From a virus: DNA of 64,000 nucleotides. The notes beneath the pieces are model-generated. The model had not been told where the DNA came from. It made no database searches and was given only the letters and a program-made list of their open reading frames with translations. A program made the position numbers and the translations under genes. Positions 14,117 through 54,544 of the stretch are shown here, piece by piece (the first letter of the stretch is position 1; each line of letters opens with the position of its first letter). The stretch covers positions 5,329 to 69,328 of IMG/VR virus record IMGVR_UViG_3300010339_000002, one strand, 5' to 3'.

Positions 14117-15544
14117 GGTGAATCTCCTTTGGATTTCGATTGCTAAACGCCTTTCCGTTTTTTCGTAGGCCTCGGCTTATCGAGAGCCAGTTTGCATTCT
14201 AGCTGACAGAACTCCAAAAGCATGACCAGCCGGGGGTCCATCCATTCAAGGACTCCCATCCGGGTCGGAGGCTCGAAGCACTTTTTCCCGAAAACAGCAT
14301 ATGCCTCCTTAAAAGCCGCTCGGGCATAGCGCCGCTGCAACGGCACCAGCCGCTTTTGCAGGGCGTCCCATTTTCTCCAGCACTTGGGTCTCATACGCCT
14401 TCCCAATCTTCCTGCTTTTTCGTGGGCCTCGGCTTGCGCTTCCCCCCTCTAGTGGAGGCGCTCATCCGCATGCTCCAATATACCACGAACAACCCGCCGC
14501 TCGCAAAGAAAATCCAAAAGACTGAGGCTGGCATCAGTTCACGATCTCCCTGCGTGCCTTGCGGCGTTCTCGCGGGCACGGACGACATATTCCTCATGGC
14601 GAGGCTCGCGGCGGGCCTTGCGCCGCTGGTGCGAATTGCCGGAAAAGCCGCTCGTTGGCTTTGCCGGGGTTTTGTAGACTGGCTTCTTATTCGTCAGGTG
14701 CACCACTTCCTCCCCTTGAATTCCTTCGCATGCTGCCCGCAGTAAAGCTTCGCCGGGCCGTGCCCCGGCTTTCGGTGGCATTGGTGGCACATGCAGCTTC
14801 TTCCGCTTTCGTACACTTCCATGGCGCATCGCTCGGGCGTATACGCAGTCCCCTTAGGGTTGCCAGCCCACTCGTTGTAGCGCGTTTTCTGCGCCTGTTC
14901 CTTCGTCGTGGGCAAATAGCTAAAAATCATCCTAGCTCCGTTTCCCGATTAACGCACGTTCTTCATATTCTTCCTGCACGTCCCGCTCCGAACGCTTCTC
15001 GTAAGCAGCGATTGCGTCGCGCAGTTGGCACAAGATTGCTTGATTTCTTAGCCGCAGCGCATCGTGCGGCATTTGCAGGGCGAGTAAGTATCCCGATTTA
15101 CAGGCTTCGTACAATCGCTTCGTCACCTGTCCCTCGCTTTCCACCCGGCGATGAATCCGTCCGCCCGGCTCGTCAGCATCGTCACGGTATCGGGGTCCAG
15201 CGTCCCGTAGGAAATATACTTCACGCAGAATCCATAAGCCTTGTCGGGAAAAATCAGAATGCGATGCGGCTTGATCTTGAACTGCGCCATGAAGTACGCC
15301 ACCAAGGCTTCGATAACGTTCAAGCTGGCGTCAGCGGCGATCACGTACCTATGCTGGGTATCATGCTTCGCGATTAGCCCGCTCGCTGCGGCGTCAACAT
15401 TCTTCTTTGGTGTGGAATGACCGTATAGAGGATTGCACTCCGCAAAATGACAGTAGCCCGGCTTAGCTTGATGCTTGCACAGCTTGAGGTCAATGCCGTC
15501 TTGCTTGCCCCTCGATGTCGCCACGGATTGTTCCCTCCAACTAT

Positions 15545-25303: not shown

Positions 25304-27453
25304 GGATGTTCCTCGCTATCTAATAAACCCGTATTCGCAAGGTTCGTTGTGTTAGACGAATGGCAAATCAAAGACGGTTTCAACTATCGCGCAAATTCCC
25401 AGTTGGTTACGCAATCAGTGCTGGGCTCGTATGACAGCATAATACGGCGCTTTCCGGGGCCGGGCTTGATCCGCGCCCGCTGGTCCCCGCAGAACCAGAC
25501 ATCCAGATTGTCATCATGGTCAAATTTGATGTGAGTCTGGGCGGCCGAGTGGTTGGCATCCGGCCCCTCGGGATAGTAGTAGACAGACGTGATGACACCC
25601 TCGTAGAATGTCCGGCCATAGAATTGCCGCCCGTGTTCGGACTTCTTTTGCTCCGCCTGCTGCTGGGCCGGAGGCGCGGCGGACGGCACCTTAGACTGCG
25701 CTTGGACGGTGGCTTTCCTCGATATGGGCAGCGGCATGAATGCCAGCGCGATGATTCCGAAACCAATAAAAATTCCTAGAACAACGCCTTTCATTCTTCC
25801 CCCTCCGGTGTCTCGATGATCTTGGGCACGATCTCAGGCACTTGCGAAAACATCTTTTCCCGAGTCTCTTCCATCAGTTCGTGGAACCGCTTGGGCTGGT
25901 AATCGTAGCACTTGTGGGCGGCAAGCTCCTCAGGCGTAAGCTCCCGCTTCACGCCGTCCCTTGGGCGGTAGGGATTTAGGTTCAGGTACCCAGTGGAATA
26001 CAATTCCATGTCCCGCTCTTGCCGTTCGCGCCAGCCGAGGTTGTTCTTGATGCGCTCCTCGCAGGTCTGGATCAAGTAGCCCCGCTGGCAGCGGCAGCCG
26101 CCCTCGTCGCCCCCGGCGATCCGGTCGGCAATGATCTTCTCAGCGTCCTCGCGGGTGTCCACGGCCCCAAAGTCCTCGCCCCCGGCGACACTGCAATGTG
26201 GATCAACGATGTGGTATCTCATTGGCTCATTCCCCATCCTCCTGAAGATGAGTCAGAACCCAGTGCGTGTCCCATTCCCTTCGGGTCTTGAACAGCAATG
26301 GCGGCTCCTTACCCGTGCACTGGTAACAGGCCGGACGCCACCGGAACCACGAGCGCCAGCCTTTGTACCAGAAGGGCTCGGGGATCGCCGGAACCCAGCC
26401 AAGCTGCTCGTCGTATTGCGATGTGGGGCTCATGTCACGCTCCGCACAATCCGTTGTGCTCCGGGCAGGGAACGGCCGGACTGTCGTCGATTCGCCCTAT
26501 TCCCGTGCCGAAGCAAAACTCGCAGCCTCGGTAACTCGGATCGGCCCGCCGCTGTTCCCGCAGTGCTATCAGCCGGGTGGTCTCCTTCGCCGACTCCTCG
26601 ATGCTTTTCACCAAGTCGCTTAATCGTCCCGTCAGCATGGCTGGGTCAGCCTGATTTCTGTTTCAAACGGCAGATGCATATTGCCGTTGTACATCGCCTT
26701 GCCGAAAATCTGCATGAGTTCATGCAACTGGAACCGTATCCATCCGTCCGCTTCGGTCTGCGACTTGCGGATGCTTTTTGGCACGTCGGCGGGCTCCGTC
26801 GCCTTCCAGTACTCGGCCCACAGTGCCTCGCCTGCCGGGGTCAGCTTCACCCAGACATTGTCGTTGACGTTGATGGTAATCATTCGAGCCTCCAGCCGGA
26901 CCATGCGTTAATGGGTGACTGCGATTCGTTGTCCATTACAGGATACACCCCGTCCATGCCGTCGTCAATAAAGCGGCCGACCGACCGCTCGCCGCTCGGC
27001 AGGGCGAACAGCACTTTGGTATTGACGGGGGGTTGCTTCTCGGTCTCGAAGCCTTCTGCCTGTAAAACGATAAGGCGCTTCGCCGTCTCCACGCGGCTGA
27101 TATAGTCGTTGACCGCGAATTCAATCTGCCGAAGCTTCGGGCCGTGCTCGAAGGGGATGTAGAACCGCTGCCAGCAGATGTGGCAGCCCGCGAGGGGCTG
27201 GGAAGGATCGTGCCCGTGGTAGGGGCATTCGGGCAATTCGGGAAGCTGGAACATGAAACCTAATACTGGAAATTAACGGATCGGCAGTGAAAAACTTCAT
27301 TTCCCAGCTTCCTAACGTCATCATTAGAGGCGCTGGAAGGCGCTTCGACGTTGCCCAGAGGTTGTGGGACGTAGGCCTAGCTGAAAAATTTCCATGAGTA
27401 AGCGGGCACCCCCAGCCGTTCGCACGTCAATTCACTTCATGGAGGGAACTCCC

Positions 27454-27531
27454 ATGAGATTTCGCCTTAACAGCGCAGTCATCATTGCGGTGATTGCTAT
27501 CATCGCTTTGGCACTCCTCGTAGCACGATGA
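27454..27531 (+). CDS. 25-aa hydrophobic peptide (type I toxin-like)
   Basis: SD GGAGG, MRFRLNSAVIIAVIAIIALALLVAR*; below ORF-track cutoff. Confidence 0.5.
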   Translation: MRFRLNSAVIIAVIAIIALALLVAR

Positions 27532-27587
27532 CGATCAGACAATTCTGACGGACGCCGCCCGCCGTCTGTTACTCAAACGGGCTTTCT

Positions 27588-27758
27588 TTATCGTAGTCCT
27601 CGAAGTTTTTGCTCTGTGCTACTCAAGCGCCTTTCGATGTTCCCTAAGCGGTTTTCAATCTTTTTGATCGCGGAGATCAAATCATCAAGGGCTCCACGCG
27701 TATTCGTTTCGGGAATGTAGGTGGCCTTGGATTGGGCGTTATGCAAATTGATACTCAT
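27588..27758 (-). CDS. 56-aa coiled-coil protein
   Basis: MSINLHN...IKKIENRLGNIERRL; GAGTATTA motif 7 nt upstream. Confidence 0.55.
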   Translation of the reverse strand: MSINLHNAQSKATYIPETNTRGALDDLISAIKKIENRLGNIERRLSSTEQKLRGLR

Positions 27759-27828
27759 ACGGTATTAATACTCATGAAGCCAGAATCCCAACGTATTCAA
27801 GCTTGGATCGAGAGAGAAGAACGAAGTT

Positions 27829-27903
27829 TGGTGGGACCGGAGGGACTTGAACCCCCATTCCCTGCTTAAAGGGCAGGTCTTCTAACCGTTGAATTACGGT
27901 CCC
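27829..27903 (-). tRNA. tRNA-Lys(TTT), C33 variant
   Basis: anticodon arm CCTGC-CC TTT AA-GCAGG; encoded CCA. Confidence 0.85.
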
Positions 27904-27904
27904 A

Positions 27905-27980
27905 TGGTCCCCTCAGCGAGACTCGAACTCGCAACCCCAACGCTTAAAAGGCGTGTGCTCTGCCATTGAGCTACGAGGGG
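27905..27980 (-). tRNA. tRNA-Lys(TTT)
   Basis: CACGC-CT TTT AA-GCGTT; TTCGA T-loop; CCA. Confidence 0.9.
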
Positions 27981-27985
27981 GAAAG

Positions 27986-28066
27986 TGGGGGGCGTGGCGG
28001 GACTCGAACCCGCATTTTCAGTCCAGTTAAAGGCTACGGTTTAGAAGACCGCGTTTCTACACGCCC
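27986..28066 (-). tRNA. D-armless tRNA-Arg(TCT)-like gene with long variable region
   Basis: acceptor GGGCGTG/CACGCCC, 7-nt linker, GCGGT-CT TCT AA-ACCGT, T arm, CCA. Confidence 0.7.
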
Positions 28067-28183
28067 AAAGGTGGGATCAACGTTTTCGTCTGAGGTAATC
28101 GGGAAGAAGGATCAACCCGACATAGAAGAGCCACAGGACCACGACGAGTCCTATTGCGGCACCGAGTTGTGCTAGAGTCTGCA

Positions 28184-28372
28184 TTACTTCTTCCTTGCGT
28201 ACTTTACTGCTGCTTTACCAAGCTCTTCGGGCGTTGCATCGAATGCCTGTTTCATGCCCCGCCGCGCTTCCGGCATCTGCATGCCTTTGAGCATCAGATC
28301 GAAGTACGCCTGCGACATTCTCGTCTTTCCGTTCTTGCGGGCGGTCGTAACGACTTGTTCGAACTTCGTCAT
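28184..28372 (-). CDS. hypothetical protein inside tRNA operon
   Basis: 62-aa ORF between tRNAs. Confidence 0.55.
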   Translation of the reverse strand: MTKFEQVVTTARKNGKTRMSQAYFDLMLKGMQMPEARRGMKQAFDATPEELGKAAVKYARKK

Positions 28373-28377
28373 AAATT

Positions 28378-28452
28378 TGGCTGCTTCGGGTGGACTCGAA
28401 CCACCATAACATGCTCCAGAGGCATGTGTCCTGCCAATTAGACGACAAAGCA
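28378..28452 (-). tRNA. tRNA-Gln(CTG)
   Basis: CATGC-CT CTG GA-GCATG; U1-A72; G73 CCA. Confidence 0.9.
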
Positions 28453-28635
28453 GCAGAAACTTATTTCGATGGTACGGCTCTTTTCCAGCCGATGGTTAAA
28501 GCTCCCACGCTCCATGCTCGCCCTTCGAAACTGGGCGAGATCAGCGGAGCGCCATGAAACGAAAACCACCAAGGGCACGGGCTCCACGGCGTCCACCCAG
28601 CAAACCAATGAAGCTTCATATCCGTTCTCCAAATC

Positions 28636-28710
28636 TGGTGGCCCCACCCGGACTCGAACCGGGATTTCAAGTTTAGGAAACTAGCGTCCTCTCCATTGAA
28701 CGATGGAGCC
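28636..28710 (-). tRNA. tRNA-Arg(CCT)
   Basis: CTAGT-TT CCT AA-ACTTG; T arm; CCA. Confidence 0.85.
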
Positions 28711-28714
28711 ATGA

Positions 28715-29056
28715 AGCCGTTGCTAACGAGCGCAAAGTCGTTCTTACACTCTCTCGCGTTCAGTGAGGGCTCAACATCCGCCCGTCAACGCTACTGAGCC
28801 AGCAACGGCAAATTCACACAAAACCGAGAATCCTGCGATCCGTGGCCACGGACTCTCAACCGCAGGAGAAGGGACAAGAGAGCTTCCCCGCCCAAACGCC
28901 TGTACTAAGCGCCTCGGGCTTTAGCCGGAGCCCGAGAGCCCCGACGAATTCCATACGGGGGAGGGCCTCCACAATGCCCTCCCCCGTCCTAGCCATCGTC
29001 CTCGCCGGGCGGCGATCCCGATGGTCCGGCTCAACTCAGACCTTCTGTTGAGCCGA
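28715..29056 (-). ncRNA. candidate large structured ncRNA within tRNA operon
   Basis: about 340 nt without convincing ORF and at least six strong hairpins. Confidence 0.5.
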
Positions 29057-29072
29057 TCTCATGAACATCGAC

Positions 29073-29288
29073 CTACTCAATTCTGCAACAACGAACTGGC
29101 GAGCATCCATCAACCGTTAGATCAGAATACGCCCCGTATCCGTCGCTACCTTCAATCTTCACATACGGACGATAAGCGTATCGATACTCGTAGTGATAAG
29201 CATACTGTTTCCAGACTTGCCCATTTGTGAGCCGAATACTGGTATTCCCATTCCAACCGTTAAATGAGTCCTCTATCTGATAGGTCAT
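29073..29288 (-). CDS. hypothetical protein
   Basis: 71-aa ORF, FNGWNG...LTNGQVWKQ. Confidence 0.6.
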   Translation of the reverse strand: MTYQIEDSFNGWNGNTSIRLTNGQVWKQYAYHYEYRYAYRPYVKIEGSDGYGAYSDLTVDGCSPVRCCRIE

Positions 29289-29805
29289 GATTTCTCATTC
29301 CTTCACTGATCCGCTGTTTTACAACCTCAGACCATGCTTTACCTTTGTTCCATGCTTTCGGCGGATTTGCCGCTTTAGTGCGTTTCTCCGTAGCCGCAAT
29401 TTTGGCACGAACTTCTGCCGCGTGTCTCCAACCACGACGGTTACGATTTGCTGCGGCGACCGCTTGTCCCACATGCGTTGGGCGCTTTTTACCCAACTTC
29501 AGTTGCCGCTGAATCTCGCCGAAACCCTTGGGCATTTTGCCGTTTTCCCCCTCCCGCAAATTCATGCAAAAAGGGTCGGCTATAAACGCCGCAATCAATT
29601 CTTTTTCCTTCCCAAAGGCCGATTCGGCATCCGGGCAGATAAACAAGACTTCTTTCTTGAAGTTGACCCGTCCGTACTTTCTCACGGCTCTCTCGATATA
29701 CGTTCCAGAGCCTAGATAAGTGTCGGACGGGTTCTTCGTTTTGTGATACCCGAAGTAGTACTTACCGTTCACTAGATTCGTCGTCTTGTAAACGGTATGG
29801 AACAT
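29260..29805 (-). CDS. GIY-YIG homing endonuclease (Seg-like)
   Basis: TVYKTTNLVNGKYYFGYH...YLGSG; NUMOD3-like tail AWNKGK. Confidence 0.9.
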   Translation of the reverse strand: MFHTVYKTTNLVNGKYYFGYHKTKNPSDTYLGSGTYIERAVRKYGRVNFKKEVLFICPDAESAFGKEKELIAAFIADPFCMNLREGENGKMPKGFGEIQRQLKLGKKRPTHVGQAVAAANRNRRGWRHAAEVRAKIAATEKRTKAANPPKAWNKGKAWSEVVKQRISEGMRNHDLSDRGLI

Positions 29806-29809
29806 CAAG

Positions 29810-30361
29810 CTACTTATCCAACTCAATATTCCAGTACAGCCAGCCGCCGTCCACCCATGGCTTCCAAGTCGGATGCATCTTCTTGATCCGGAGCTTGAAG
29901 TTGTACTTCGGGTCGTCCGGCTTGGGCTCGAACGGCGTCCTGCGCAAATGCATGCCTGCCTGCTCCGGAATGTTTCCGGACTTGTGCTTGTTGCACCTGA
30001 TGCATGACAGCACGAGGTTCGTCCACTTCGACGTACCGCCGAGGCATCGCGGAACCACGTGGTCCAAAGTGTACTCCGGCAGATGAAGCAGCTTGCCGCA
30101 GTACTGACACTCGCTGTTGTCCCGAATCGCAACGTTGCGGCGGGAGAATGGGACCGCTGTCTTCCGGCGACGACGCACCCAGTTCTTGGCGCGAATGACA
30201 GTCGGCATGTTCATCTCGAACGACGGAGAGTGAAGGATGCGCTCTTCGTCCTCCCCGAGGATCGTTGCGCGGTCCTCCCAGATCAGCTTCACGGCCTTCT
30301 GCCAGCCGACGAAGCCGATGGGCATCCCCGTCATGTCAAGCACTAGTGTGTCACACGACAT
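29810..30361 (-). CDS. HNH endonuclease (McrA-like)
   Basis: RDNSECQYCG...TLDHVVPR..GG.S.WTNLV.SCIRCN..K. Confidence 0.9.
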   Translation of the reverse strand: MSCDTLVLDMTGMPIGFVGWQKAVKLIWEDRATILGEDEERILHSPSFEMNMPTVIRAKNWVRRRRKTAVPFSRRNVAIRDNSECQYCGKLLHLPEYTLDHVVPRCLGGTSKWTNLVLSCIRCNKHKSGNIPEQAGMHLRRTPFEPKPDDPKYNFKLRIKKMHPTWKPWVDGGWLYWNIELDK

Positions 30362-30362
30362 T

Positions 30363-31055
30363 TTATTTCCTTCCTAACTTCCACCCCTCGGCTAAAAACT
30401 CCGAAAGTCTTGATAAAACTACAGTCTTTGTTACAGAGCCCCTATGCACCCACTTATTAGGGAATTCCGTAGCCCACTTCTTGTGGGCATTAGACAACTT
30501 TAAGCGTGTTGATTTCGGCATTTTCTTACCTTTATTCCACGCGGAATGCCCAAAAACCTGCCGCAACTTAGAGACAGCGGGTGTTCCTCCTGTAATACTT
30601 TTACGCCCTCGTCCATGAGCAATGTCCCTAATCGTTCGCTTGCTAACCCCGAATTCTTCACGTAGCTGCCTTACTGTTGCACCCTTACTTGCTTTTTGAC
30701 GAATTACAACAACTTGCTCATCTGTCAACTTGGTATTACTGCGGTGGAGTCCCACCTCTCGAACATAGTCCCAACCGCCGTGTCCGCCTTTATTCAAATT
30801 CATGCACAGCGGATCGCGTCCGCGGCAGCACTGGATCAATTCGTCTTCCTTCCCAAAGGCCGACTCCGGGTCAAGGTAGATAAACAGCACCTCCTTGCGG
30901 AAGTTTTGTTCCCCATACTTCGCAACGGCTCGCCTGATATACGTTCCCGATCCAAGATAATCGTCATAAGGACTTCGTGTCTTGTGGACACCAAAGTAGT
31001 ATCTACTGTTCACAAGATTTGTTGTCTTATAGACCGTATAAAAGTGCCGTTGCAT
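30363..31055 (-). CDS. GIY-YIG homing endonuclease with HTH
   Basis: TVYKTTNLVNSRYYFGVH...YLGSG; HTH-like VRQLREEFGVSKRTI; paralog of 29260-29805. Confidence 0.9.
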   Translation of the reverse strand: MQRHFYTVYKTTNLVNSRYYFGVHKTRSPYDDYLGSGTYIRRAVAKYGEQNFRKEVLFIYLDPESAFGKEDELIQCCRGRDPLCMNLNKGGHGGWDYVREVGLHRSNTKLTDEQVVVIRQKASKGATVRQLREEFGVSKRTIRDIAHGRGRKSITGGTPAVSKLRQVFGHSAWNKGKKMPKSTRLKLSNAHKKWATEFPNKWVHRGSVTKTVVLSRLSEFLAEGWKLGRK

Positions 31056-31078
31056 ATCTCCTTTCCAATCCTCAGACT

Positions 31079-31154
31079 TGGTGCGCCCGGAGAGAGTCGA
31101 ACTCTCGACCTTGGGCTTAAGAGGCCCCTGCTCTACCAATTGAGCTACGAGCGC
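31079..31154 (-). tRNA. tRNA-Lys(CTT)
   Basis: GGGGC-CT CTT AA-GCCCA; CCA. Confidence 0.9.
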
Positions 31155-31196
31155 ACTTTACTACAGTACCACATTCCCGACCTTCGTCGGGAAACT

Positions 31197-31271
31197 TGGT
31201 GGGTCTGCCGAGACTCGAACTCGGGTTCCATCCTTAAGAGGGATGTCTTCTCGCCGCTGAATTACGGACCC
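31197..31271 (-). tRNA. tRNA-Lys(CTT)
   Basis: CATCC-CT CTT AA-GGATG; CCA. Confidence 0.88.
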
Positions 31272-31277
31272 AAAATC

Positions 31278-31352
31278 TGGCTCCTCGGGAGGGGATCGAA
31301 CCCCCGACCATTCGGTTAACAGCCGACCGCTCTACCGCTGAGCTACCGAGGA
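31278..31352 (-). tRNA. tRNA-Asn(GTT)
   Basis: canonical TCCTCGG acceptor; GTCGG-CT GTT AA-CCGAA. Confidence 0.92.
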
Positions 31353-31363
31353 ACTGAAACTCT

Positions 31364-31510
31364 TTACCGCAACTTCCGTATCTCCGCCACAACGCTATCT
31401 TCCAAATGCTTGATCGCCGCCGTTATGGCCTTGGCGCTTCGCGCTTCCAAGAAGTGGTCCATGACAGCGCCCAAAACAAAGCTTCCTATAACCGCGATGA
31501 CCGTACCCAT
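31364..31510 (-). CDS. 48-aa single-pass membrane protein in tRNA operon
   Basis: SD GGGAG; MGTVIAVIGSFVLGAVMDH... Confidence 0.55.
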   Translation of the reverse strand: MGTVIAVIGSFVLGAVMDHFLEARSAKAITAAIKHLEDSVVAEIRKLR

Positions 31511-31526
31511 AGTCTCCCTTCAAACT

Positions 31527-31602
31527 TGGCTGGGGCGGTAGGATTTGAACCTACACCGTCTCGGGTAACAACCGAGCGTCCTGCCAGTTGGACCACGCCC
31601 CA
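31527..31602 (-). tRNA. tRNA-Asn(GTT), divergent copy
   Basis: CTCGG-TT GTT AC-CCGAG; TGGGGCG acceptor; G73 CCA. Confidence 0.85.
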
Positions 31603-31607
31603 AAACT

Positions 31608-31683
31608 TGGCTGGGAGAGCAGGACTCGAACCTGCAACCTTGCGGATCAGAGCCGCCTGCGCTACCAATTGCGCCATCTCCCA
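31608..31683 (-). tRNA. tRNA-Gln(CTG)
   Basis: GGCGG-CT CTG AT-CCGCA; U1-A72; CCA. Confidence 0.9.
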
Positions 31684-31687
31684 AAAC

Positions 31688-31773
31688 TGGAACGGGTGAC
31701 AGGACTCGAACCTGCATTCCCCGAAGGGCTAGGCGTTCGTAGCGCCCGTGGCGTCCATTGCCGTCACACCCGC
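31688..31773 (-). tRNA. tRNA with ACG (Arg) anticodon and long variable arm
   Basis: GGGCG-CT ACG AA-CGCCT; variable hairpin CCC-TTCG-GGG; U73. Confidence 0.75.
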
Positions 31774-31778
31774 AAATC

Positions 31779-31857
31779 TGGTGACCCTAGTGGGACTCGA
31801 ACCCACGACCTCTTCCTTCGGATGGAAGCGCTCTAAATCCAACTGAGCTACAGGGTC
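31779..31857 (-). tRNA. tRNA-Arg(CCG)
   Basis: CTTCC-AT CCG AA-GGAAG; CCA. Confidence 0.9.
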
Positions 31858-31902
31858 AAACTCTTGGGCCAGTGTACTTGATCGTTAGACGACCTCCCGA
31901 CT

Positions 31903-31940
31903 TGGTGGGGAGGGCGGGATTTTTACCCGCATTTCTGGCC
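31903..31940 (-). pseudogene. tRNA 3-prime fragment (T arm + acceptor strand + ACCA)
   Basis: GCGGG-TAAAAAT-CCCGC-CCTCCCC-ACCA with no 5-prime half. Confidence 0.5.
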
Positions 31941-31946
31941 CTAATC

Positions 31947-32023
31947 TGGTGCGCCCGGAGGGATTCGAACCCCCAGTCTTTGCGTTCGTAGCGCAACATC
32001 CTGATCCGTTGAACGACGGGCGC
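31947..32023 (-). tRNA. tRNA-Arg(ACG)
   Basis: TTGCG-CT ACG AA-CGCAA; GCGCCCG acceptor; CCA. Confidence 0.9.
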
Positions 32024-32075
32024 GTAATCTGCTTGTAACGGCCCAGCATAAAATGCTTGTGCTGGCCCAAAACCT

Positions 32076-32152
32076 TGGGGTGGGAGATGAGGTTCGAACT
32101 CACATCCTTCGGTGCCACAGACCGACGCTCCACCAGTTGAGCTACTCCCACC
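32076..32152 (-). tRNA. tRNA-His(GTG)
   Basis: TCGGT-CT GTG GC-ACCGA; encoded G-1 and C73. Confidence 0.92.
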
Positions 32153-32163
32153 ACTACAAAAAC

Positions 32164-32243
32164 TGGGGTGACGGGCGGGAATCGAACCCGCGAGACCACG
32201 GTTTCACAGACCGGGAAGACATCCCAACAGTCATCACCGTCAC
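32164..32243 (-). tRNA. atypical tRNA-His(GTG)
   Basis: GTG anticodon, C73, intact acceptor and T arm; aberrant D arm, no G-1. Confidence 0.65.
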
Positions 32244-32283
32244 ACTCTGCGTGCCCGGCTGACTCACGGGTACGACTTAAACT

Positions 32284-32358
32284 TGGCAGGGGAGGAGGGA
32301 CTCGAACCCCCGTAGCTGGTTTTGGAGACCAGAGTCCTAGCCGCTGGACGACTCCCCT
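32284..32358 (-). tRNA. tRNA-Trp(CCA)
   Basis: CTGGT-CT CCA AA-ACCAG; AGGGG acceptor; G73. Confidence 0.92.
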
Positions 32359-32397
32359 AAAACAAAAAACCCGCCGAACCTTCTCGGTCAGCGGGTC
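32359..32397 (-). terminator. intrinsic terminator (attenuator) directly upstream of first tRNA
   Basis: GACCCGCTGACC-GAGAA-GGTTCGGCGGG then TTTTTTGTTTT. Confidence 0.85.
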
Positions 32398-32423
32398 TGG
32401 AATTCTTGGATTGGAGATTTGAT

Positions 32424-32558
32424 CTACGTTACGATCACTCCATCGAAGAACGGACCCGCCGCGGTATTCCACCGCTGGCCGTCGCCCTGATGCTTTCGGG
32501 CGGCTCTCGTCGAATTGGATTTCCTGAAGGTCATGTTCTTAACCACAATACTGCGCAT
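32424..32558 (-). CDS. attenuator leader peptide, Arg/Lys/Asn/His/Gln/Trp-rich (44 aa)
   Basis: MRSIVVKNMTFRKSNSTRAARKHQGDGQRWNTAAGPFFDGVIVT*; alternative in-frame ATG at 32534. Confidence 0.75.
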   Translation of the reverse strand: MRSIVVKNMTFRKSNSTRAARKHQGDGQRWNTAAGPFFDGVIVT

Positions 32559-32562
32559 CTAC

Positions 32563-32590
32563 ATAATACACCAGACAGCGGGAAAATCAA
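32563..32590 (-). promoter_or_regulatory. sigma70-like promoter of tRNA operon
   Basis: TTGATT-N16-TATTAT. Confidence 0.6.
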
Positions 32591-33668
32591 TAGGAATTGT
32601 CGAAAATATTTCAAGAAAGGTCGGACTAGGGCTAAAACCAGCAGTTTCAATGGGTTTTCCGCTAGTCGTGGCTCAGCCATTGGTAGTAAAGCAGGCGGCA
32701 GATGCAGCCGGGGACGTTGTTCGTGCCGTGCCCCATGCAGTTCGGATTGGCATCGGCCTGCTCCGGCACGTCGGGCACCAGCGCCGCTTTGAGCCAGTCA
32801 AGTAATCGTTTAATCATCTGTCGCTCCGATGTTGCTCGCGTTCACCCACGAACTGTCGGGATAGAAAAACTCCGCAAGTTCGCAGCACACGTAAGCCCAC
32901 TCACCGTTGATTTTAATAGTCATCAGGGGACGCTGCAAGTCCTCCGCCTCGTTCTCGTAGTGGCAGCCGGGGCAGCACTTTACTCCGGTGTACTTGAAGT
33001 CCTTGCACGTCTTCATTGCTTCCACTGACGGAATTCCCCGGTCGGCTGGAAACAGCGCTGGCATATTTGCGATTCGATCTCACACTGAGGAGCCCAAAAA
33101 GTTTGCTGGCTGTGGCCGACCGCATGGCAGACGAAGATGCCAAAGGAATCCTTGAGCAAATATTCGCGGCTTCGCCAAATCTCTTTCCATCTTCGTGGGT
33201 TCCTTACTCGGGACCAGAGCACCTGTCGTCCCCATTTGCTGAAAACGTTCCAGCCTTCCCTTGCCGCTCCGCTCATTTTTCCATCCTTTCCCAGTGCCCG
33301 CCCTCGGCGCACGTCCCGCCGACCCAGCGCTGCTTGGGCCGGAGAGCATTCGTCTCTCTGCGTTGCTTTGCGAACTTATCCGCCATGCCGGGGTCTTTCC
33401 TTTCCCTGTGGCTTTTCTTTGCTGTTTCTTTCGCCATTACCTCTCCTTGGTCTCCGACTCAATGTACTCGGCCATCTCCTCGGCTTGCCATCGGGACAAT
33501 TTCCGCGGCCGACCGGAGCGCAACCAAGTGCAAACATCCTCCGCCTTCTCTTGGCCCGAACGGATCGCCTCGATGAACGGCTGGGCTTCGTCCTCGATCC
33601 TCTCTTCCGCTCTCATGAGGGTCGGGCTCACAGCGACCATCATGCCGTTTGCTTCAGCCCTTCTCAGA

Positions 33669-34421
33669 CTATCCCTCAGTTTTCCCATGTTCTTTTTCCT
33701 CGCCTTTGATGGCTTCCTGAACTTCGGCGGGAAGCAAAGCAATTCGCTCCCGCGTGACGATTTCCGAACGGGAGGGATTCGCGGAATAAACGTACGGAAT
33801 GCTCTCTCCGCTCTCGTCCCGATAATCCATATAGTGGGTGAGGTACACCCAAGGCTGCTCCTTCCATACGGGCAGGAACGGGCCGACCTCGCGGAACTGC
33901 TGCAAGTGGAACCGGAAGGCTTCGCGGGCGTCAATGTCGGCGATCAGAGTGTCATCGCGCCAATGGCCGGAATACCCGACAGGAATGAGAACTCCCGTAC
34001 CAACGTGGAGATTGAAATAGCAGGTGCCGCCGTTCAGCTTGCCGTAATAGGTGTCGAATTTCAGGAGCAGCCCCTCATCGGCTTTCCAGAAAACATAGAG
34101 GGTTTCATTTACGTCTGGCTCTCTCCTGCTTTTGCCGACGAAGGGGAGGGCTAGAACCTGCTTGAATCCCTCCGCCTCGATGACCTCGAAATATTCCTTA
34201 AGCGGCATGGCCCAGTAGGAATCGTTGCGTTCCTGAAGCCCCGCCTTCCTGTGCCTGCCATTTTCGTGCATCAGAGCCATCCCCAGCCAGACGGTAGATT
34301 CGTCGTCGTGGGAGTCCTTCCCGGTAATTTTTTCTGCCGTGTCCAAAGCGTCGAACGCCAGCAATCGCTTGAGCTTTGAATCGGGAATTACTGACTCTTT
34401 TTTCTGTGGTTTGGTGCTCAT
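33669..34421 (-). CDS. hypothetical phage protein
   Basis: 250-aa ORF in coupled chain. Confidence 0.7.
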   Translation of the reverse strand: MSTKPQKKESVIPDSKLKRLLAFDALDTAEKITGKDSHDDESTVWLGMALMHENGRHRKAGLQERNDSYWAMPLKEYFEVIEAEGFKQVLALPFVGKSRREPDVNETLYVFWKADEGLLLKFDTYYGKLNGGTCYFNLHVGTGVLIPVGYSGHWRDDTLIADIDAREAFRFHLQQFREVGPFLPVWKEQPWVYLTHYMDYRDESGESIPYVYSANPSRSEIVTRERIALLPAEVQEAIKGEEKEHGKTEG

Positions 34422-34844
34422 TTCTTATTGCTCCAATGCTTCTCTTCGAGGGGATTGCACTCCGAGCAGCGCCAGCCATAGACATGCCCGAAGAACACCC
34501 GAGGCTCCATGGGAGCTTCACATTTCTCGCAGAGCGGCACATCCATGCCAAGCATCAGCGATGTGTCGCCGAGTGGCCTCTCGGACCTGACGGGCTCGTT
34601 GTCCACCAGCGGGTCGAATATGTCGAAGATGCTCATACATCTACAATCTTATACCAGAGCTTGCGAATCTTGATAAAAAGCGGCTCCGGCTTGATCCCAT
34701 TAGGTGGATAGAACCGCTTCATCAGGCAATCGGGGCACTCGTGCCGGAGGTGCAAATCCGTGATGTACTCCTGACCGCACTGGCAGCGCTCCAGCAAGTG
34801 TGCCTCTTGCCTGCCCCGCACGTCGAGGTCTATGTGCTCGTCGT

Positions 34845-35138
34845 TCATAATATCTTCGCCTCCCCAAGATGCGGACGCTTGCGCTTCCACTCGATCCACT
34901 TCCGCACAGCCGGGTGCGCCTTCAGCTTCTCAATGGTATTGTACTCCCGTTCAAGCTCTTTTTCACTGAAAAGGGCGTGAAGCTGGTTGTGGCACGGGCG
35001 GCACATGTCGGCGGTCTTTTTCCGCTCGTCCCCAAAGTCCCGCTTCACCTTCCGATTGTGCCGCATCCGCGGGATCAGGTGGTGGTCGGTCAGCCGCATC
35101 CCGTCCATCTCGCAAAGCTCGCAGACCCCTACTCCCAT
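34845..35138 (-). CDS. small HNH-type protein
   Basis: CELC...LTDHHLIP...CRPCHNQLH. Confidence 0.8.
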   Translation of the reverse strand: MGVGVCELCEMDGMRLTDHHLIPRMRHNRKVKRDFGDERKKTADMCRPCHNQLHALFSEKELEREYNTIEKLKAHPAVRKWIEWKRKRPHLGEAKIL

Positions 35139-35581
35139 AGACTGTGGGGCTCCCGTGGCCAGAATCGATACTCACGTTTCTTATCCGGGTCATAAAAGCC
35201 CCAAGACCTTGCAAGTCGATTAGCCTCCCATTCATCGGGCCGCTCTTCGTAGTGAGGCATCTCTTTAGCCATATCGATTGGTCCGGCGTGTCTCAGAGCA
35301 ACGTGAGCAAATTCGTGCGCTACTGTGTAGTTTACTCGTTCCTGCGGATCGGTTTCAAGGATGGGGTCTAAGTAGATGTGCCAGCGGTTGGTTCCTCCGC
35401 TTTGCCAAGCAGAACCCGATACATTGCTGGGTGCGAGAATATCTACATTTAATTCATCCAAGACACCACCGGGCACTCTCGCCGCAAAATATTGCAACGC
35501 TTTGTAAGTTTTAGCTCTGCGTTCTTTATCTATTGACCAACAGAACCGCTTCTCGAATTCTTCCCAATCCATGCTTGCCAT
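35129..35581 (-). CDS. ImmA/IrrE-like zinc metallopeptidase
   Basis: YTVAHEFAHVAL.H ... EWEANRLA. Confidence 0.7.
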   Translation of the reverse strand: MASMDWEEFEKRFCWSIDKERRAKTYKALQYFAARVPGGVLDELNVDILAPSNVSGSAWQSGGTNRWHIYLDPILETDPQERVNYTVAHEFAHVALRHAGPIDMAKEMPHYEERPDEWEANRLARSWGFYDPDKKREYRFWPREPHSLWE

Positions 35582-36990
35582 CCTAATCGAACCGAATCGT
35601 ATTTCCCTTGAAGAGCCCGGAGCAGACCGCGCCGCTCACAGGCTTTCCCGAGGGAGACACCGCCGTGAAGCCTGTGCTGAACAGATCATGGTTGTCACAG
35701 GTGAACCAGCGGTATCCCGTTGTCTGCACATGCGTGTAGCCGTTGTCTTCCAAGGTTTTCTGTGCTGTGACGGGAGAAGTACAGGCCATGGGCATAAGAA
35801 TGATGTACAGGACTATCCCCGCCAAGATAAGGAATCCTTTCAGGATTGTCTTTGCGTCGTCTTTATCCACGGCTATTCCTCTTTCAAGTAGGACTGCGCG
35901 TCCCACATCGAGACGTGCTGTCCGCTCTCCGTGACGACGCTGAATCCGCCTTGCGACGGTGGTGCTAGTTCCCCGTTCGGGCCGATGCCACTCTTGGAGA
36001 CGATTCTCTCCACGCGGCCCCCGACCTTCACGTGGGTCGCTTCCCTCACATCAACGCCCTCTTTCATTGTTTTTCCCTCTGTCACTCTTGATCGTTGTCT
36101 CTCAAGGCGAGCACATGCACGGCATGGCACGTTTCTTGTGCATGGGCAACAAACGCCGCCAGAGACTTTTGATCCCCGCGTTGTCCGAAAACAAGCATGC
36201 TCTCTGTTTTGTCGTTTGCATCGGTCACATCAAAGTTTCCCTTGATTTTCCCATCGGGAGTAAGAAGCAGCTTGAGTTCTGATGTCAATCCGTTTTTACC
36301 GCTTGACACGCGCACAAAAGTAAGGATGTCCACCTCTTGGTCGCCATAGGGCAGGCGGTCGCCTTGCTTGAATGCATACTTGAATCCGGCGCTCTTATGG
36401 CGACGCTCTTTTCGCAACCCCACCCCGTAAAGGGCTGACAAACTTTGCTCGTACTTTGCGGTGATAACATCGTCTGTCACTGACAAGCTGTATCGCCCAC
36501 CCTCAGTGTCGGGGTTTCCGCAGAAAGCCAGATTCCACTCGCCAGCCATCTTGGCTTGGGCAGCGATCAGGTCCGGACCCAGCAGTGCAAAATCCGTGTC
36601 CTGTTGCCCAAAAAGAAGCAGCGAACTCCCCAGCAGGATGACAGCAAGTAGCGCGCAATACGGTGTCCATGTTTTGAAATTCATCATTCTTCTCCTCGGG
36701 TTCTCATTTCTTTGAGTTCCCAAATCTTTGCCCTGTAGTGCCGGATGGCACGCATCACGTCTTCTTCGGTGACACAGCTTGTCGCGTGGATGCCAGCCGA
36801 CGCGAGGACTTTGGCGCTGTAATGCGGAAGGTTTCGAATCTCTTCCTCCAGCGAATCCACCGGGTCTTCGGTGTTCGCCGAGGACGCGGGGTCGTTGGCC
36901 CAGTCCGTAAGGTCTTTCTCTACGCCGCCAACCGCCACGCCGAGCCAAGGCTCGGGACCAGTTGGAACGTGGGTACAAACACCTATCGGC

Positions 36991-37971
36991 TTAGCTTTTT
37001 TCTTTGGCATCAGCCTTTTCCTTCTCGTAAAGCTCCATGGCCACCTTGACCATCTCCCGCTCGACCCATTTTTGGTCTTCCCATTCCTTGATGGCTCCCG
37101 GATTCGCTTTGCAGTGCTCCGATATCCACCATGTTGACGCGGAGAACGCCTTGCTGATAATCCGCAAGACCGCATTGCTTTGGTTCCAGACCGTCTCCTG
37201 CGCGGCGGTCACGATGTCACTGACCTTGCCGAGATCAACCGCTGGGGGCAAGCCGGAAGCCAGCCGGGCAGCTTCGAGTCGGGTGAAAAGTTCCTGTGCG
37301 ATCTCTTCAATGTCCCTCAGGGTTCCGGCTTTACCCTTCCGGATGTCAATCAGGTGCTCCCTTTCGGGGCGGGGTAGCGTGATCCTGCCCGTCTGCATAA
37401 GCTCAATGCCCTCGTTGAGCACGCGGACCAGATGCATGGCCGCCTTAGTATCGTAGCCAAACTCGGCGATCAAATCCAGCCGCTTCCCCCGCTTGCCCTG
37501 CCCCTCGCCCTTGAGCGTGCGGAGCATGTGCTCGCAGAACTTTTGGAAATGCAGCCCGGCGTGGGAACTCAGGAACACGGGGATATTCGGCGTGACGAAG
37601 TGCTCCCAGATGTCGCTCTTGGGTGCGAGGTTGTTTACGAACATGAACTCGATGGCGCTCGGGTTGCCGGATGTTGCCATCTTCGCCCACTTGCGGAGGG
37701 AGTACATGTTCATGTCGATGTCCCCCGCATTGTTGCGCACCTTGTCTCCCGCCGTGCTCCAGACCCAGTGCTCGTCCACGCCGCGGACGCCGACGATCTC
37801 TTCCAGCGGCGGGACGTATACGCCAAGCAGGTCGAAATCGCTTTTGTTTTCTAGCTTCACGCCGTGCGCTGCGGACCCGCCGATGAAGAGGTGGACGGTT
37901 TCGCCCAAGTACGGATAGTCGGTGTTTTGGACGATCAGTTCGTAGATTTCTGGCGCTTGACGAGGAACCAT
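36991..37971 (-). CDS. Pol-beta superfamily nucleotidyltransferase (YcgL/RlaP-like, RNA-repair associated)
   Basis: GGSAAHG....SDFD..GVY, GNPSAIE, GYDTKAAMHLVR. Confidence 0.85.
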   Translation of the reverse strand: MVPRQAPEIYELIVQNTDYPYLGETVHLFIGGSAAHGVKLENKSDFDLLGVYVPPLEEIVGVRGVDEHWVWSTAGDKVRNNAGDIDMNMYSLRKWAKMATSGNPSAIEFMFVNNLAPKSDIWEHFVTPNIPVFLSSHAGLHFQKFCEHMLRTLKGEGQGKRGKRLDLIAEFGYDTKAAMHLVRVLNEGIELMQTGRITLPRPEREHLIDIRKGKAGTLRDIEEIAQELFTRLEAARLASGLPPAVDLGKVSDIVTAAQETVWNQSNAVLRIISKAFSASTWWISEHCKANPGAIKEWEDQKWVEREMVKVAMELYEKEKADAKEKS

Positions 37972-54310: not shown

Positions 54311-54403
54311 TGGTAGTCCCGGAGGGATTCGAACCCCCAATCACGCCCCAATCTAGGGCTTGCGGTGTATAAGGCCGCTGTTTTACCGTTAAACTACGGG
54401 ACT
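54311..54403 (-). tRNA. tRNA-Ile(TAT) with long variable arm
   Basis: AGTCCCG/CGGGACT acceptor, A73; loop CT TAT AC; variable hairpin GCCC-TAGATTG-GGGC. Confidence 0.75.
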
Positions 54404-54506: not shown

Positions 54507-54544
54507 AAAAACAAAAAAGCCGCCGAACCCTTTGGGCTGGCGGC
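54507..54544 (-). terminator. intrinsic terminator (attenuator) directly upstream of first Ser tRNA
   Basis: GCCGCCAGCCC-AAA-GGGTTCGGCGGC then TTTTTTGTTTTT. Confidence 0.88.

What the first reader, a model, noticed from the sequence alone, without database searches (positions are those of the whole stretch)
32284..32590. Second attenuator: multi-amino-acid leader whose codons match the 16-tRNA operon
Seen: promoter TTGATT-N16-TATTAT, then ORF 32558-32424 MRSIVVKNMTFRKSNSTRAARKHQGDGQRWNTAAGPFFDGVIVT. Fifteen of the first 31 codons are Arg (CGC, AGG, AGA, CGA, CGG: five different codons), Lys (AAG, AAA, AAG), Asn (AAC, AAT, AAT), His, Gln (CAG twice) or Trp, and none of these occur after codon 31. 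The downstream operon has tRNAs only for these six amino acids, and its Gln tRNAs are only CTG, matching the CAG-only leader. Leader GGCGGGTC (32460-32453) pairs with GACCCGCT, the terminator 5-prime arm (32397-32390). The pairing is extended by TTCTT/AAGAA, TGGAG/CTCCA and GATC/GATC, with the TAG stop near the apex. The terminator U-tract touches tRNA-Trp. Inference: a codon-sampling OR-gate sensor. Caveat: ATG 32558 is only 4 nt from the -10; the in-frame ATG 32534 keeps 12 of the 15 codons.
Basis: partly seen in the sequence, partly recalled or inferred. Interest (0 to 1): 0.93.

Follow-up and report, generated by a model that had tools for sequence, protein, structure and literature searches.

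The report
Leader-peptide attenuator gating phage tRNA operon
A soil phage places a tiny reading frame, holding at least one codon for every tRNA type in the gene row behind it, in front of a switchable transcription stop, so it probably makes these spare tRNAs only when ribosomes read those codons slowly.

Summary
Observation confirmed. On the minus strand a sigma-70-like promoter (32590-32563) precedes a 44-codon ORF (32558-32424). A 71-nt hairpin follows (32460-32390, -31.3 kcal/mol, z -5.7). Its 3' arm is the 5' arm of a strong terminator (32397-32359) that abuts tRNA-Trp.

Codons 2-31 hold at least one cognate codon for each of the 10 tRNA species of the 16-gene array (15 of 30 codons). 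Codons 32-44 hold none (0 of 13). Only 21 of 65,256 stop-free 30-codon windows of the contig cover all ten, and 12 of those are the leader itself. This terminator and its sister before the Ser/Ile array are the two strongest in the window.

The nearest deposited phage, Tunturi_5, has three arrays, each behind a short ORF plus terminator. Own-array pairing of the five leaders is the best of 120 permutations. Its Trp-first operon shares this promoter motif.

Best reading (about 0.65): a ribosome-mediated attenuator that opens the operon when a sampled codon is decoded slowly.

Weak points:
- ATG lies 4 nt from the -10, with no Shine-Dalgarno.
- Mostly one or two codons per tRNA.
- The terminator is favoured at equilibrium.
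- No RNA data and no orthologue sequence.

I found no paper on such control. The scan noted the same kind on other phage DNA before.

The parts
32594..32611 (-). Upstream promoter motif AAATATTT-N4-CAATTC, continued by CCGCT at 32581-32577
   Evidence: The composite motif (AATTC..CCGCT..-10) occurs once in the 64-kb window (here). It occurs once in the 30-kb Tunturi_5 locus L009, in front of that phage's Trp-first tRNA operon.
32563..32590 (-). Sigma-70-like promoter TTGATT-16-TATTAT
   Evidence: 9 of 12 positions. It is the only promoter-like site on the minus strand between 34938 and 26968. It aligns colinearly with the sister element's promoter (CCCGCT..TATTAT).
32424..32558 (-). Leader ORF, 44 codons plus TAG. 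In-frame alternative starts are GTG 32546 and ATG 32534.
   Evidence: No homologue among called proteins.
32466..32555 (-). Sensing stretch, codons 2-31: 15 codons cognate to the 10 tRNA species of the operon
32390..32460 (-). Antiterminator hairpin. The outer helix is GGCGGGUC/GACCCGCU and the stop codon (32426-32424) lies near the apex.
   Evidence: -31.3 kcal/mol, z -5.70, 0 of 200 shuffles fold as well.
32359..32397 (-). Intrinsic terminator: stem 32397-32369 and U-rich tail to 32359
   Evidence: -20.8 kcal/mol, z -4.72. It is the second strongest hairpin-plus-T-run of the whole window. Its 3' arm and tail are shared with the sister terminator.
31079..32358 (-). tRNA block 1: Trp-CCA, His-GTG x2, Arg-ACG, Arg-CCG, Arg-ACG, Gln-CTG, Asn-GTT x2, Lys-CTT x2 (with a 48-codon ORF inside)
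   Evidence: His 32164-32243 and Arg-ACG 31688-31773 are ARAGORN calls without an Rfam gathering-level hit.
27829..28710 (-). tRNA block 2: Arg-CCT, Gln-CTG, D-armless tRNA-like Arg-UCU (27989-28066), Lys-TTT x2. Homing-endonuclease genes (31054-29260) separate it from block 1.
   Evidence: No promoter-like site, and only one weak terminator-like site (30904-30889, inside the endonuclease ORF), on the minus strand between the blocks. Membership of the same operon is inferred.

Best explanation
This is a ribosome-mediated (leader-peptide) transcription attenuator that gates a 16-gene phage tRNA operon.

Transcription starts at the promoter at 32590-32563. A ribosome translates the short ORF while RNA polymerase moves on.

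When decoding is slow: codons 2-31 hold one to three codons for each of the ten tRNA species encoded downstream. If the ribosome is held up at any of them, the 71-nt antiterminator hairpin (32460-32390) forms behind the polymerase. It ties up the 5' arm of the terminator, and polymerase runs on into tRNA-Trp and the rest of the array.

When decoding is smooth: the ribosome is inside codons 32-44, on the 5' arm of the antiterminator, as the terminator is made. The terminator then forms and the transcript ends at 32359.

The new tRNAs would relieve the stall, giving negative feedback.

Shown here: the parts, their overlap, the codon-to-tRNA match, and the recurrence of the design. Inferred: translation of the ORF, the timing, conditional termination, and that block 2 belongs to the operon.
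For: (1) Codon match. All 10 tRNA species have a cognate codon in codons 2-31. This holds in only 21 of 65,256 null windows, 12 of them the leader's own. For codons 10-31 it holds in 4 of 78,238 windows. 15/30 cognate codons against background 0.23 gives P = 1.1e-3, and 15/30 against 0/13 gives P = 1.0e-3. The leader has CAG only, and Gln-CTG is the only Gln tRNA.

(2) Switch. The antiterminator folds at -31.3 kcal/mol with z -5.7 and the terminator at -20.8 with z -4.7. They share GACCCGCU.

(3) Geometry. Before the terminator 3' arm exists, the modelled probability of the outer antiterminator helix depends on where the ribosome sits. It is 0.76-1.00 at codons 2-30, 0.29 at codon 31 and 0.00 at codons 32-40. 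The sensing codons stop where stalling would stop helping.

(4) Placement. The two strongest hairpin-plus-T-run terminators among the 52 found in the window are this one and the sister element. Both directly abut the first tRNA of an array, and I see no -10-like hexamer in between (by eye).

(5) Sister element at 54651-54505. It has 8 consecutive Ser codons using all six Ser codons, plus ATA, in front of Ser x4 and Ile-UAU tRNAs. Its terminator 3' arm is homologous.

(6) Related cultured phage Tunturi_5 (42% identity over 90% of a 986-aa protein). Each of the three array heads I read in L009 follows a short ORF plus terminator. The ORF's codons are enriched for its own array (P = 1e-3, 2e-4 and 2e-3). 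Across the five leaders and five arrays, the true pairing is the best of 120 permutations on both measures. The stop codon lies 24-34 nt before the terminator 5' arm in all five.

(7) The promoter motif is shared with Tunturi_5's Trp-first operon, while the two peptides are unrelated.

(8) Leaderless starts are usual in this phage. In 8 of 10 promoters of its TAGCNAAAA family the ATG lies exactly 6 nt after the -10.
Against: - The ATG lies 4 nt, not 6 nt, after the -10. Neither it nor the internal ATG has a Shine-Dalgarno, so translation is unproven.
- The promoter consensus match alone is not above chance.
- Over the whole ORF the enrichment is only P = 0.051. The leader fits the large Tunturi_5 array T2 about as well (21/43, P = 0.075).
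- With the complete terminator present, equilibrium folding gives the terminator P >= 0.81 at 42 of 44 ribosome positions (0.33-0.42 at codons 24-25).
- The refolding barrier from antiterminator to terminator is only 2.2 kcal/mol. The switch must therefore be kinetic, and that is not shown.
- A ribosome parked on the stop codon does not cover the outer helix in the model (0.82).
- Without any ribosome the antiterminator is the default (0.82). Untranslated read-through transcripts from upstream genes could therefore pass.
- Six of the ten tRNA species have a single codon, unlike the codon runs of classical attenuators.
- No orthologue sequence and no RNA data could be obtained.
- In an unrelated phage family a sigma-70-like promoter sits between a similar terminator and the tRNAs. 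A terminator upstream of an array therefore need not gate it.
Confidence: 0.65

Rival explanations
1. Plain promoter plus leaky or RNA-only conditional terminator. The 200-nt leader RNA is not read by ribosomes. The ORF and its codon coverage are chance, and the hairpin pair acts without translation (for example through a protein or RNA factor, or as a processing signal).
For: The start-codon geometry is poor and there is no Shine-Dalgarno. Whole-ORF enrichment is only P = 0.051. The terminator is favoured at equilibrium whatever the ribosome position. The switching barrier is low.
Against: The coverage of all 10 species is rare: 21 of 65,256 windows, 12 of them the leader's own. It survives the alternative start. 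The sensing codons end where the model says stalling stops helping. The same ORF-plus-switch design, with other codons matching other arrays, recurs in the sister element and three times in Tunturi_5. No Rfam family fits the RNA.
Confidence: 0.17
2. An ordinary small protein gene (44 aa) with its own promoter and terminator. The tRNAs are made by unregulated read-through, and the peptide has a function of its own.
For: Phage genomes are full of small genes. The analogous ORF in Tunturi_5 is annotated as hypothetical protein gp308.
Against: No homologue was found among 5.8 billion clustered proteins with a word-based search. The peptide is unrelated to that of the homologously placed Tunturi_5 ORF although the promoter motif is kept. 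The last 13 codons are dictated by the antiterminator stem. The terminator abuts the first tRNA, so the tRNAs have no other visible promoter.
Confidence: 0.08
3. A tRNA-sensing riboswitch of the T-box kind. The leader RNA binds uncharged tRNA directly.
For: The leader contains GGUGGAAUACCGCGG. From memory this resembles the conserved T-box sequence. This is a recalled resemblance, not a test.
Against: The Rfam search of the 601-nt stretch at E <= 10 gave no T-box match. In the folds that stretch pairs with itself as a local hairpin. One specifier cannot sense ten tRNAs.
Confidence: 0.02

Closest known systems
Multivalent leader-peptide attenuators of enterobacterial amino-acid operons (thrL: Thr and Ile; ilvGMEDA leader: Ile, Val, Leu). 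Established knowledge, recalled.
   Same: A short promoter-proximal ORF carries regulatory codons for more than one amino acid. An antiterminator and a terminator share an arm. Ribosome position decides between them.
   Different: The regulated genes here are tRNA genes, not biosynthetic enzymes. Ten tRNA species of six amino acids are sampled, mostly by one or two codons each, rather than by runs. Codon choice follows isoacceptors (five Arg codons for four Arg tRNAs; CAG only). There is no clear 1:2 pairing, so the state without translation is predicted to be read-through. The start may be leaderless.
Sister element of this window (54651-54505) and three leaders of Tunturiibacter phage Tunturi_5 (PP885688.1; L009 6157, 14223, 26574)
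   Same: All have a promoter, a short ORF, an antiterminator/terminator and a tRNA array. The stop codon lies 24-34 nt before the terminator 5' arm. Each ORF is enriched for its own array's codons. The terminator 3' arm is shared with the sister, and the promoter motif is shared with Tunturi_5's Trp-first operon.
   Different: The sister uses a run of 8 Ser codons and has a clear 1:2 hairpin. The Tunturi_5 Trp-first leader has a Shine-Dalgarno and a 19-nt 5' leader. The peptides are unrelated.
Leaderless polycysteine short ORFs acting as cysteine-responsive attenuators in mycobacteria (bioRxiv 10.1101/834739; seen: search listing and start of abstract)
   Same: A leaderless short ORF at the 5' end of a polycistronic transcript senses decoding of particular codons.
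   Different: Those control cysteine-related operons and sense one amino acid. From the part I saw I do not know their downstream mechanism.
Anabaena trn operon: a silent 26-gene tRNA array induced under translational stress, repressed by TrcR (PMC10272220, passages read; PMC8421152, listing only)
   Same: An accessory tRNA array is kept off and switched on when translation is impaired.
   Different: Control there is by a protein repressor at the -10 box. The words 'leader' and 'attenuat' do not occur in PMC10272220.
T-box riboswitches
   Same: A leader RNA with antiterminator/terminator alternatives reports on tRNA status.
   Different: There is no Rfam match. T-boxes read one tRNA directly without a ribosome and, as far as I recall, regulate synthetase and amino-acid genes.

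Membership tests
Ribosome-mediated (leader-peptide) transcription attenuators | Short ORF between the promoter and the regulated genes | tested here: met
   A 44-codon ORF lies at 32558-32424, directly after the promoter-like site.
Ribosome-mediated (leader-peptide) transcription attenuators | ORF enriched in codons that report on the regulated function | tested here: met
   10 of 10 tRNA species are covered, and 15 of 30 codons are cognate (P = 1.1e-3). Full coverage occurs in 21 of 65,256 null windows, 12 of them the leader's own. Over the whole ORF the enrichment is only P = 0.051.
Ribosome-mediated (leader-peptide) transcription attenuators | Intrinsic terminator between the ORF and the regulated genes, with no promoter after it | tested here: met
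   The terminator at 32397-32359 folds at -20.8 kcal/mol with z -4.7. It is the second strongest of the window and abuts tRNA-Trp at 32358. There is no promoter-like site downstream on this strand until 26968.
Ribosome-mediated (leader-peptide) transcription attenuators | Alternative antiterminator structure that uses the terminator's 5' arm | tested here: met
   The hairpin 32460-32390 folds at -31.3 kcal/mol with z -5.7. Its 3' arm GACCCGCU is the terminator 5' arm.
Ribosome-mediated (leader-peptide) transcription attenuators | Stalling at the regulatory codons favours the antiterminator, and full translation favours the terminator | tested here: inconclusive
   The footprint model before the 3' arm is made gives 0.76-1.00 at codons 2-30 and 0.00 at codons 32-40. 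At the stop codon it gives 0.82. At equilibrium the terminator wins at 42 of 44 positions, and the barrier is 2.2 kcal/mol.
Ribosome-mediated (leader-peptide) transcription attenuators | The leader is translated and read-through responds to charged-tRNA supply | not testable with these tools
   No RNA run holds the stretch. The start codon is 4 nt from the -10 and has no Shine-Dalgarno.
Rfam leader families (Trp_leader RF00513 and others) | Covariance-model score at or above the gathering threshold | tested here: not met
   Trp_leader scores 16.2 bits against a gathering score of 41 (E = 1.8). Nothing else apart from tRNA matches.
T-box riboswitch (RF00230) | Match to the T-box covariance model (specifier loop, T-box sequence) | tested here: not met
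   No T-box match at E <= 10 in 32200-32800.
This phage's leaderless TAGCNAAAA...TG-TATACT promoter family | TAGCNAAAA box 24 nt before the -10, and an ATG exactly 6 nt after the -10 | tested here: not met
   The sister element is a member (TATTAT variant). This promoter has TATTGATTTT in place of the box and only 4 nt to the ATG. It shares CCCGCT..TATTAT and resembles the Tunturi_5 Trp-operon promoter instead.

The most novel reading that the evidence does not exclude
The element is a ribosome-based alarm for damage to the host tRNA pool. Lys, Arg, Asn, His, Gln and Trp tRNAs are, as I recall, frequent targets of anticodon nucleases used in anti-phage defence. When such a nuclease removes any one of them, the ribosome halts at that tRNA's one to three codons in the leader, and the phage switches on its replacement tRNAs. 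An RNA-repair-type nucleotidyltransferase (RlaP domain, 36991-37971) lies close by. Mostly one or two codons per species would then make sense. They ignore mild amino-acid shortage and respond only to near-total loss of a tRNA.
Probability: 0.22. Interest if true: 0.9.

Novelty: new variant of a known kind. Interest (0 to 1): 0.8.

Why it matters
Leader-peptide attenuation is a textbook mechanism, but it is known for amino-acid biosynthesis and a few translation genes.

Here the same logic appears to regulate tRNA genes themselves, and the leader acts as a codon-by-codon sampler of the very tRNAs it controls.

If true, it explains how large phages decide when to express their tRNA arrays, an open point in the debate over why phages carry tRNAs.

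It also gives a ready-made, compact sensor of the decoding speed of chosen codons. And it links tRNA arrays to host tRNA depletion or cleavage.

The cultured relative Tunturi_5, with three such leaders, makes the idea directly testable at the bench.

Tried and rejected
Relatives
- Four DNA patterns and three protein or alignment queries found no relative in viral contigs.
- The metagenome scan with the 250-aa neighbour gave 8 distant loci (23-55% identity). None of the 8 has a tRNA.
- The genome-contig scan with the 986-aa protein family gave 30 loci in bacterial chromosomes and plasmids. That protein is therefore not a phage hallmark, and I did not pursue those loci.
- The leader peptide has no word-sharing homologue. 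Short uncalled ORFs would be missed by that search.

Expression
- No RNA holder is listed for the stretch.
- Contigs of run X2 (peat) hold a roughly 88%-identical relative at depth near 4000. The contigs laid on it leave 32408-32495 uncovered, and the letters are not retrievable, so no orthologue comparison was possible.

Rejected readings
- T-box and other Rfam families: no match.
- An independent promoter between terminator and tRNA-Trp: by eye there is no room and no -10-like hexamer, and the scan lists none.
- The generalised measure 'any upstream partner of the terminator arm' was too noisy for the two elements of this window. I rely on the explicit outer-helix measure.
- Supplementary files of papers were not consulted. 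Table S3 of PMC11924767 may hold annotation of the Tunturi_5 small ORFs.
Full report
WHAT IS THERE

The window is part of a single 69,328-base virus record with 54.5% G+C. Nearly all genes near the finding lie on the minus strand. Read on that strand, the order is as follows:
- The end of a 51-codon ORF, at 32662.
- An A/T-rich stretch and the motif CAATTC (32611-32594).
- A promoter-like TTGATT-16-TATTAT (32590-32563).
- An ATG four bases later (32558) that opens a 44-codon frame ending in TAG at 32424.
- A long hairpin.
- A G+C-rich hairpin followed by TTTTTTGTTTT (to 32359).
- tRNA-Trp at once, from 32358.

ARAGORN finds 11 tRNA genes in a first block (32358-31079). After three homing-endonuclease-like ORFs it finds four more (28710-27829). 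Rfam adds a tRNA-like gene at 27989-28066. This gene has intact acceptor, anticodon (UCU) and T arms, but its D arm is replaced by 4 nt and its variable region carries a 19-nt insertion. The total is 16 genes and 10 species: Trp-CCA, His-GTG, Arg-ACG, Arg-CCG, Arg-CCT, Arg-UCU, Gln-CTG, Asn-GTT, Lys-CTT and Lys-TTT. Two of the ARAGORN calls (His 32164-32243, Arg-ACG 31688-31773) have no Rfam gathering-level hit. Both duplicate a species that has another copy.

THE CODON MATCH

Codon by codon, codons 2-31 contain CGC, AAG, AAC, AGG, AAA, AAT, AGA, CGA, AAG, CAT, CAG, CAG, CGG, TGG and AAT. That is 15 of 30 codons, with at least one cognate codon for every one of the ten species. Codons 32-44 contain none.

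As a null I took every stop-free window in the six frames of the contig:
- 21 of 65,256 windows of 30 codons cover all ten species, and 12 of those are the leader's own windows. The other nine fall in three places, one of them inside the tRNA genes.
- If translation starts at the in-frame ATG 32534, codons 10-31 still cover all ten species. Only 4 of 78,238 windows of 22 codons do so.
- Against the codon usage of long ORFs (cognate fraction 0.23), 15 of 30 gives P = 1.1e-3. The contrast 15/30 against 0/13 gives P = 1.0e-3.

Weaker points:
- Over the whole ORF (15 of 43) the enrichment is only P = 0.051.
- The leader matches the large codon set of an unrelated array (Tunturi_5 T2) about as well (21/43, P = 0.075).
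- Five Arg codons hitting all four Arg isoacceptor classes has P = 0.085 by itself.

The strength of this leader is therefore complete coverage, not density.

THE RNA SWITCH

The stretch 32460-32390 folds into a 71-nt hairpin of -31.3 kcal/mol (z -5.70; 0 of 200 shuffles fold as well).

The terminator (32397-32369 plus tail) folds at -20.8 kcal/mol (z -4.72), and its 5' arm is that same GACCCGCU. Among the 52 hairpin-plus-T-run sites that my scan found on both strands of the window, the two strongest are this terminator and the sister terminator at 54518. Both abut the first tRNA of an array. A strong terminator placed directly in front of genes that have no other visible promoter makes sense only if it is conditional or leaky.

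I modelled a ribosome as a block from 15 nt before to 12 nt after the first base of the A-site codon. Before the terminator's 3' arm is transcribed, the probability of the outer antiterminator helix is:

| Ribosome position | Probability |
|---|---|
| Codons 2-30 | 0.76-1.00 |
| Codon 31 | 0.29 |
| Codons 32-40 | 0.00 |
| Stop codon | 0.82 |
| No ribosome | 0.82 |

The sensing codons thus end where a stall would cease to favour read-through. Every species has a codon at position 30 or earlier.

Against this:
- Once the full terminator is present, equilibrium favours it at 42 of 44 ribosome positions (P >= 0.81).
- The refolding barrier is only 2.2 kcal/mol.
- A ribosome resting on the stop codon does not cover the outer helix.

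As in classical attenuators, the decision would have to be kinetic. A ribosome running through codons 32-44 while polymerase makes the terminator gives termination. I cannot show the timing.

PROMOTER AND START

The phage has a promoter family, TAGCNAAAA...TG-TATACT, with ten copies if the sister element is counted. In 8 of the 10 an ATG lies exactly 6 nt after the -10, which points to leaderless mRNAs. The sister element is a member.

The promoter of this finding is not. It has TTGATT where the box would be, and only 4 nt separate the -10 from the ATG. No Shine-Dalgarno precedes either ATG. This is the weakest link.

The upstream region does have a counterpart. The composite motif AAATATTT-N4-CAATTC-N12-CCGCT-N8/9-(-10) occurs once in the window (here). 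It occurs once in the 30-kb Tunturi_5 locus, in front of that phage's own Trp-first tRNA operon.

RECURRENCE

Sister element (54651-54505). It encodes MGYIVRISSSSSSSSGAGGGVRVYTTD*. The eight Ser codons use all six Ser codons and are preceded by ATA. Behind its terminator lie Ser-GCT, Ile-UAU, Ser-GGA, Ser-UGA and Ser-CGA. The 3' arm and T-run of the two terminators are nearly identical.

Tunturi_5. The closest deposited phage is Tunturiibacter phage Tunturi_5 (308,711 bp, an Acidobacteriota host, Arctic soil). It shows 42% identity over 90% of the 986-aa ORF. In its tRNA region (L009; 39 tRNAs) I read the sequence upstream of the three array heads. Each has a short ORF followed by a terminator:

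| Leader ORF | tRNAs behind it |
|---|---|
| MKTLCLSSYCLSSSLSLSDGWDLRTGRDADMI* | Leu, Cys, Leu, Leu, Tyr, Leu, Ser x3 |
| MQHVSTFRFAVPATAGNPAGQQGTNACDTGGGKVVKW* | Asn (ARAGORN left this anticodon unresolved), Gln x2, Gly, Thr x3, Pro, His, Ala x3, Phe, Pro x3 |
| gp308, MKQILKQLGHDFDIRGKRGVVVDTWDITIRGERKWSDVRDMRVLRERPV* | Trp, Asp, Met x2, Lys x2, Val x2, Arg x4, Glu x2 |

Own-array enrichment is P = 1e-3, 2e-4 and 2e-3. For the five leaders and five arrays, the true pairing is the single best of 120 permutations, both for the fraction of cognate codons and for species covered. The stop codon lies 24-34 nt before the terminator's 5' arm in all five.

Sub-blocks of tRNAs that follow interspersed ORFs (block 2 here, and several in L009) were counted with the array in front of them. 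I did not look for further leaders there.

The Tunturi paper does not use the words 'leader' or 'attenuat' (passages read).

An unrelated, A+T-rich phage group. It turned up through the pattern GGNTTTTTGTTTTAGGGG. In 10 of 18 hits the pattern lies 65-130 nt before a large array that starts with Gln-UUG. These loci carry a 37-42-codon ORF. Four of its 5 distinct versions contain all 20 amino acids (the null is 251 of 42,812 windows, the leaders included). An antiterminator/terminator pair follows. In the three I read, a sigma-70-like promoter then sits between terminator and tRNAs. That is a warning that such a terminator need not gate the array.

WHAT IT MOST LIKELY IS

It is most likely a leader-peptide attenuator that opens the tRNA operon when any of the sampled codons is read slowly (confidence about 0.65). 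The rivals are:
- An untranslated leader with a leaky or factor-dependent terminator (0.17).
- An ordinary small gene (0.08).
- A T-box-like riboswitch (0.02; no Rfam match).

Mostly one or two codons per tRNA suggest a response to severe loss of a tRNA rather than to mild starvation. Together with a nearby RlaP-type RNA-repair domain protein, this allows the bolder reading of a counter-defence alarm against tRNA-cleaving nucleases. The target lists of such nucleases are recalled, not tested.

COMPARISON WITH WHAT IS KNOWN, AND NOVELTY

The mechanism is that of the multivalent attenuators (thrL and the ilv leaders; recalled). It differs in its target (tRNA genes), its isoacceptor-level sampling and its probable default-on state.

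Leaderless short-ORF attenuators exist in mycobacteria (10.1101/834739; listing and start of abstract).

The nearest published control of an accessory tRNA array that I found is the Anabaena trn operon. A protein, TrcR, represses it at its -10 box (PMC10272220, passages read; PMC8421152, listing only).

Four full-text searches found no paper that describes leader-peptide control of tRNA genes. The library covers open-access papers and bioRxiv only.

Earlier notes of this scan describe the sister element and the same kind of element on other phage DNA. They are unchecked leads, and I did not use them as support.

WHAT I COULD NOT DO

No RNA run holds the stretch.

Noticed in passing
L009 (PP885688.1 225000-255000): 6157-6256, 14223-14337, 26574-26723: In the cultured jumbo phage Tunturi_5, each of the three tRNA array heads I read follows a short ORF plus terminator. 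The ORF's codons mirror its own array (Leu/Cys/Tyr/Ser; Asn/Gln/Gly/Thr/Pro/His/Ala/Phe; Trp/Asp/Met/Lys/Val/Arg/Glu). Only the third ORF is annotated (gp308, hypothetical).
   Followed up: partly
L011 3400-3690, L016 12555-12850, L017 1826-2090 and seven more loci (L013, L014, L015, L018, L021, L026, L027): An unrelated A+T-rich phage group has a conserved 37-42-codon ORF in front of its 20-27-gene tRNA array. Four of the ORF's 5 versions contain all 20 amino acids. An antiterminator/terminator pair follows. In the three loci I read, a sigma-70-like promoter (TTGACG-17-TAAGAT) then follows.
   Followed up: partly
window 54311-54403 (-): A tRNA with anticodon UAU (ATA codon) has a long variable arm like class II tRNAs, discriminator A, and a C-A mismatch at the anticodon stem end. 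It lies inside the Ser array. Which amino acid it carries is open.
   Followed up: no
window 27989-28066 (-): A tRNA-like gene with anticodon UCU has no D arm (4 nt instead) and a 19-nt insertion in the variable region. Rfam scores it at 36.8 bits and ARAGORN misses it. It is the only AGA reader of the operon.
   Followed up: partly
window 3579, 4612, 9458, 15550, 16811, 18701, 47733, 54663, 58784, 63858 (-): A phage promoter family, TAGCNAAAAtCCCCC...cTG-TATACT. In 8 of 10 copies an ATG lies exactly 6 nt after the -10, which implies leaderless mRNAs.
   Followed up: partly
window 36991-37971 (-): A 326-aa protein with an RlaP domain (RNA-repair-pathway DNA polymerase beta family; E = 2.9e-18), about 4.4 kb upstream of the tRNA operon.
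   Followed up: no
window 42949-45909 (-): A 986-aa ORF with no Pfam domain belongs to a large family (1373 representatives at E <= 1e-3). The family is also found in bacterial chromosomes and plasmids (30 loci) and in Tunturi_5.
   Followed up: partly
window 29260-31054 (-): Two GIY-YIG-like ORFs and one HNH ORF (read from motifs in the translations; no family search was run) split the tRNA array into two blocks. A 48-codon ORF with a Shine-Dalgarno (31510-31364) sits between the two Asn tRNA genes.
   Followed up: no
window 27500-36000, run X2: A peat metagenome run holds a relative about 88% identical at contig depth near 4000. Its tRNA array seems rearranged or shorter (joints 32219->29771 and 31992->30835).
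   Followed up: partly
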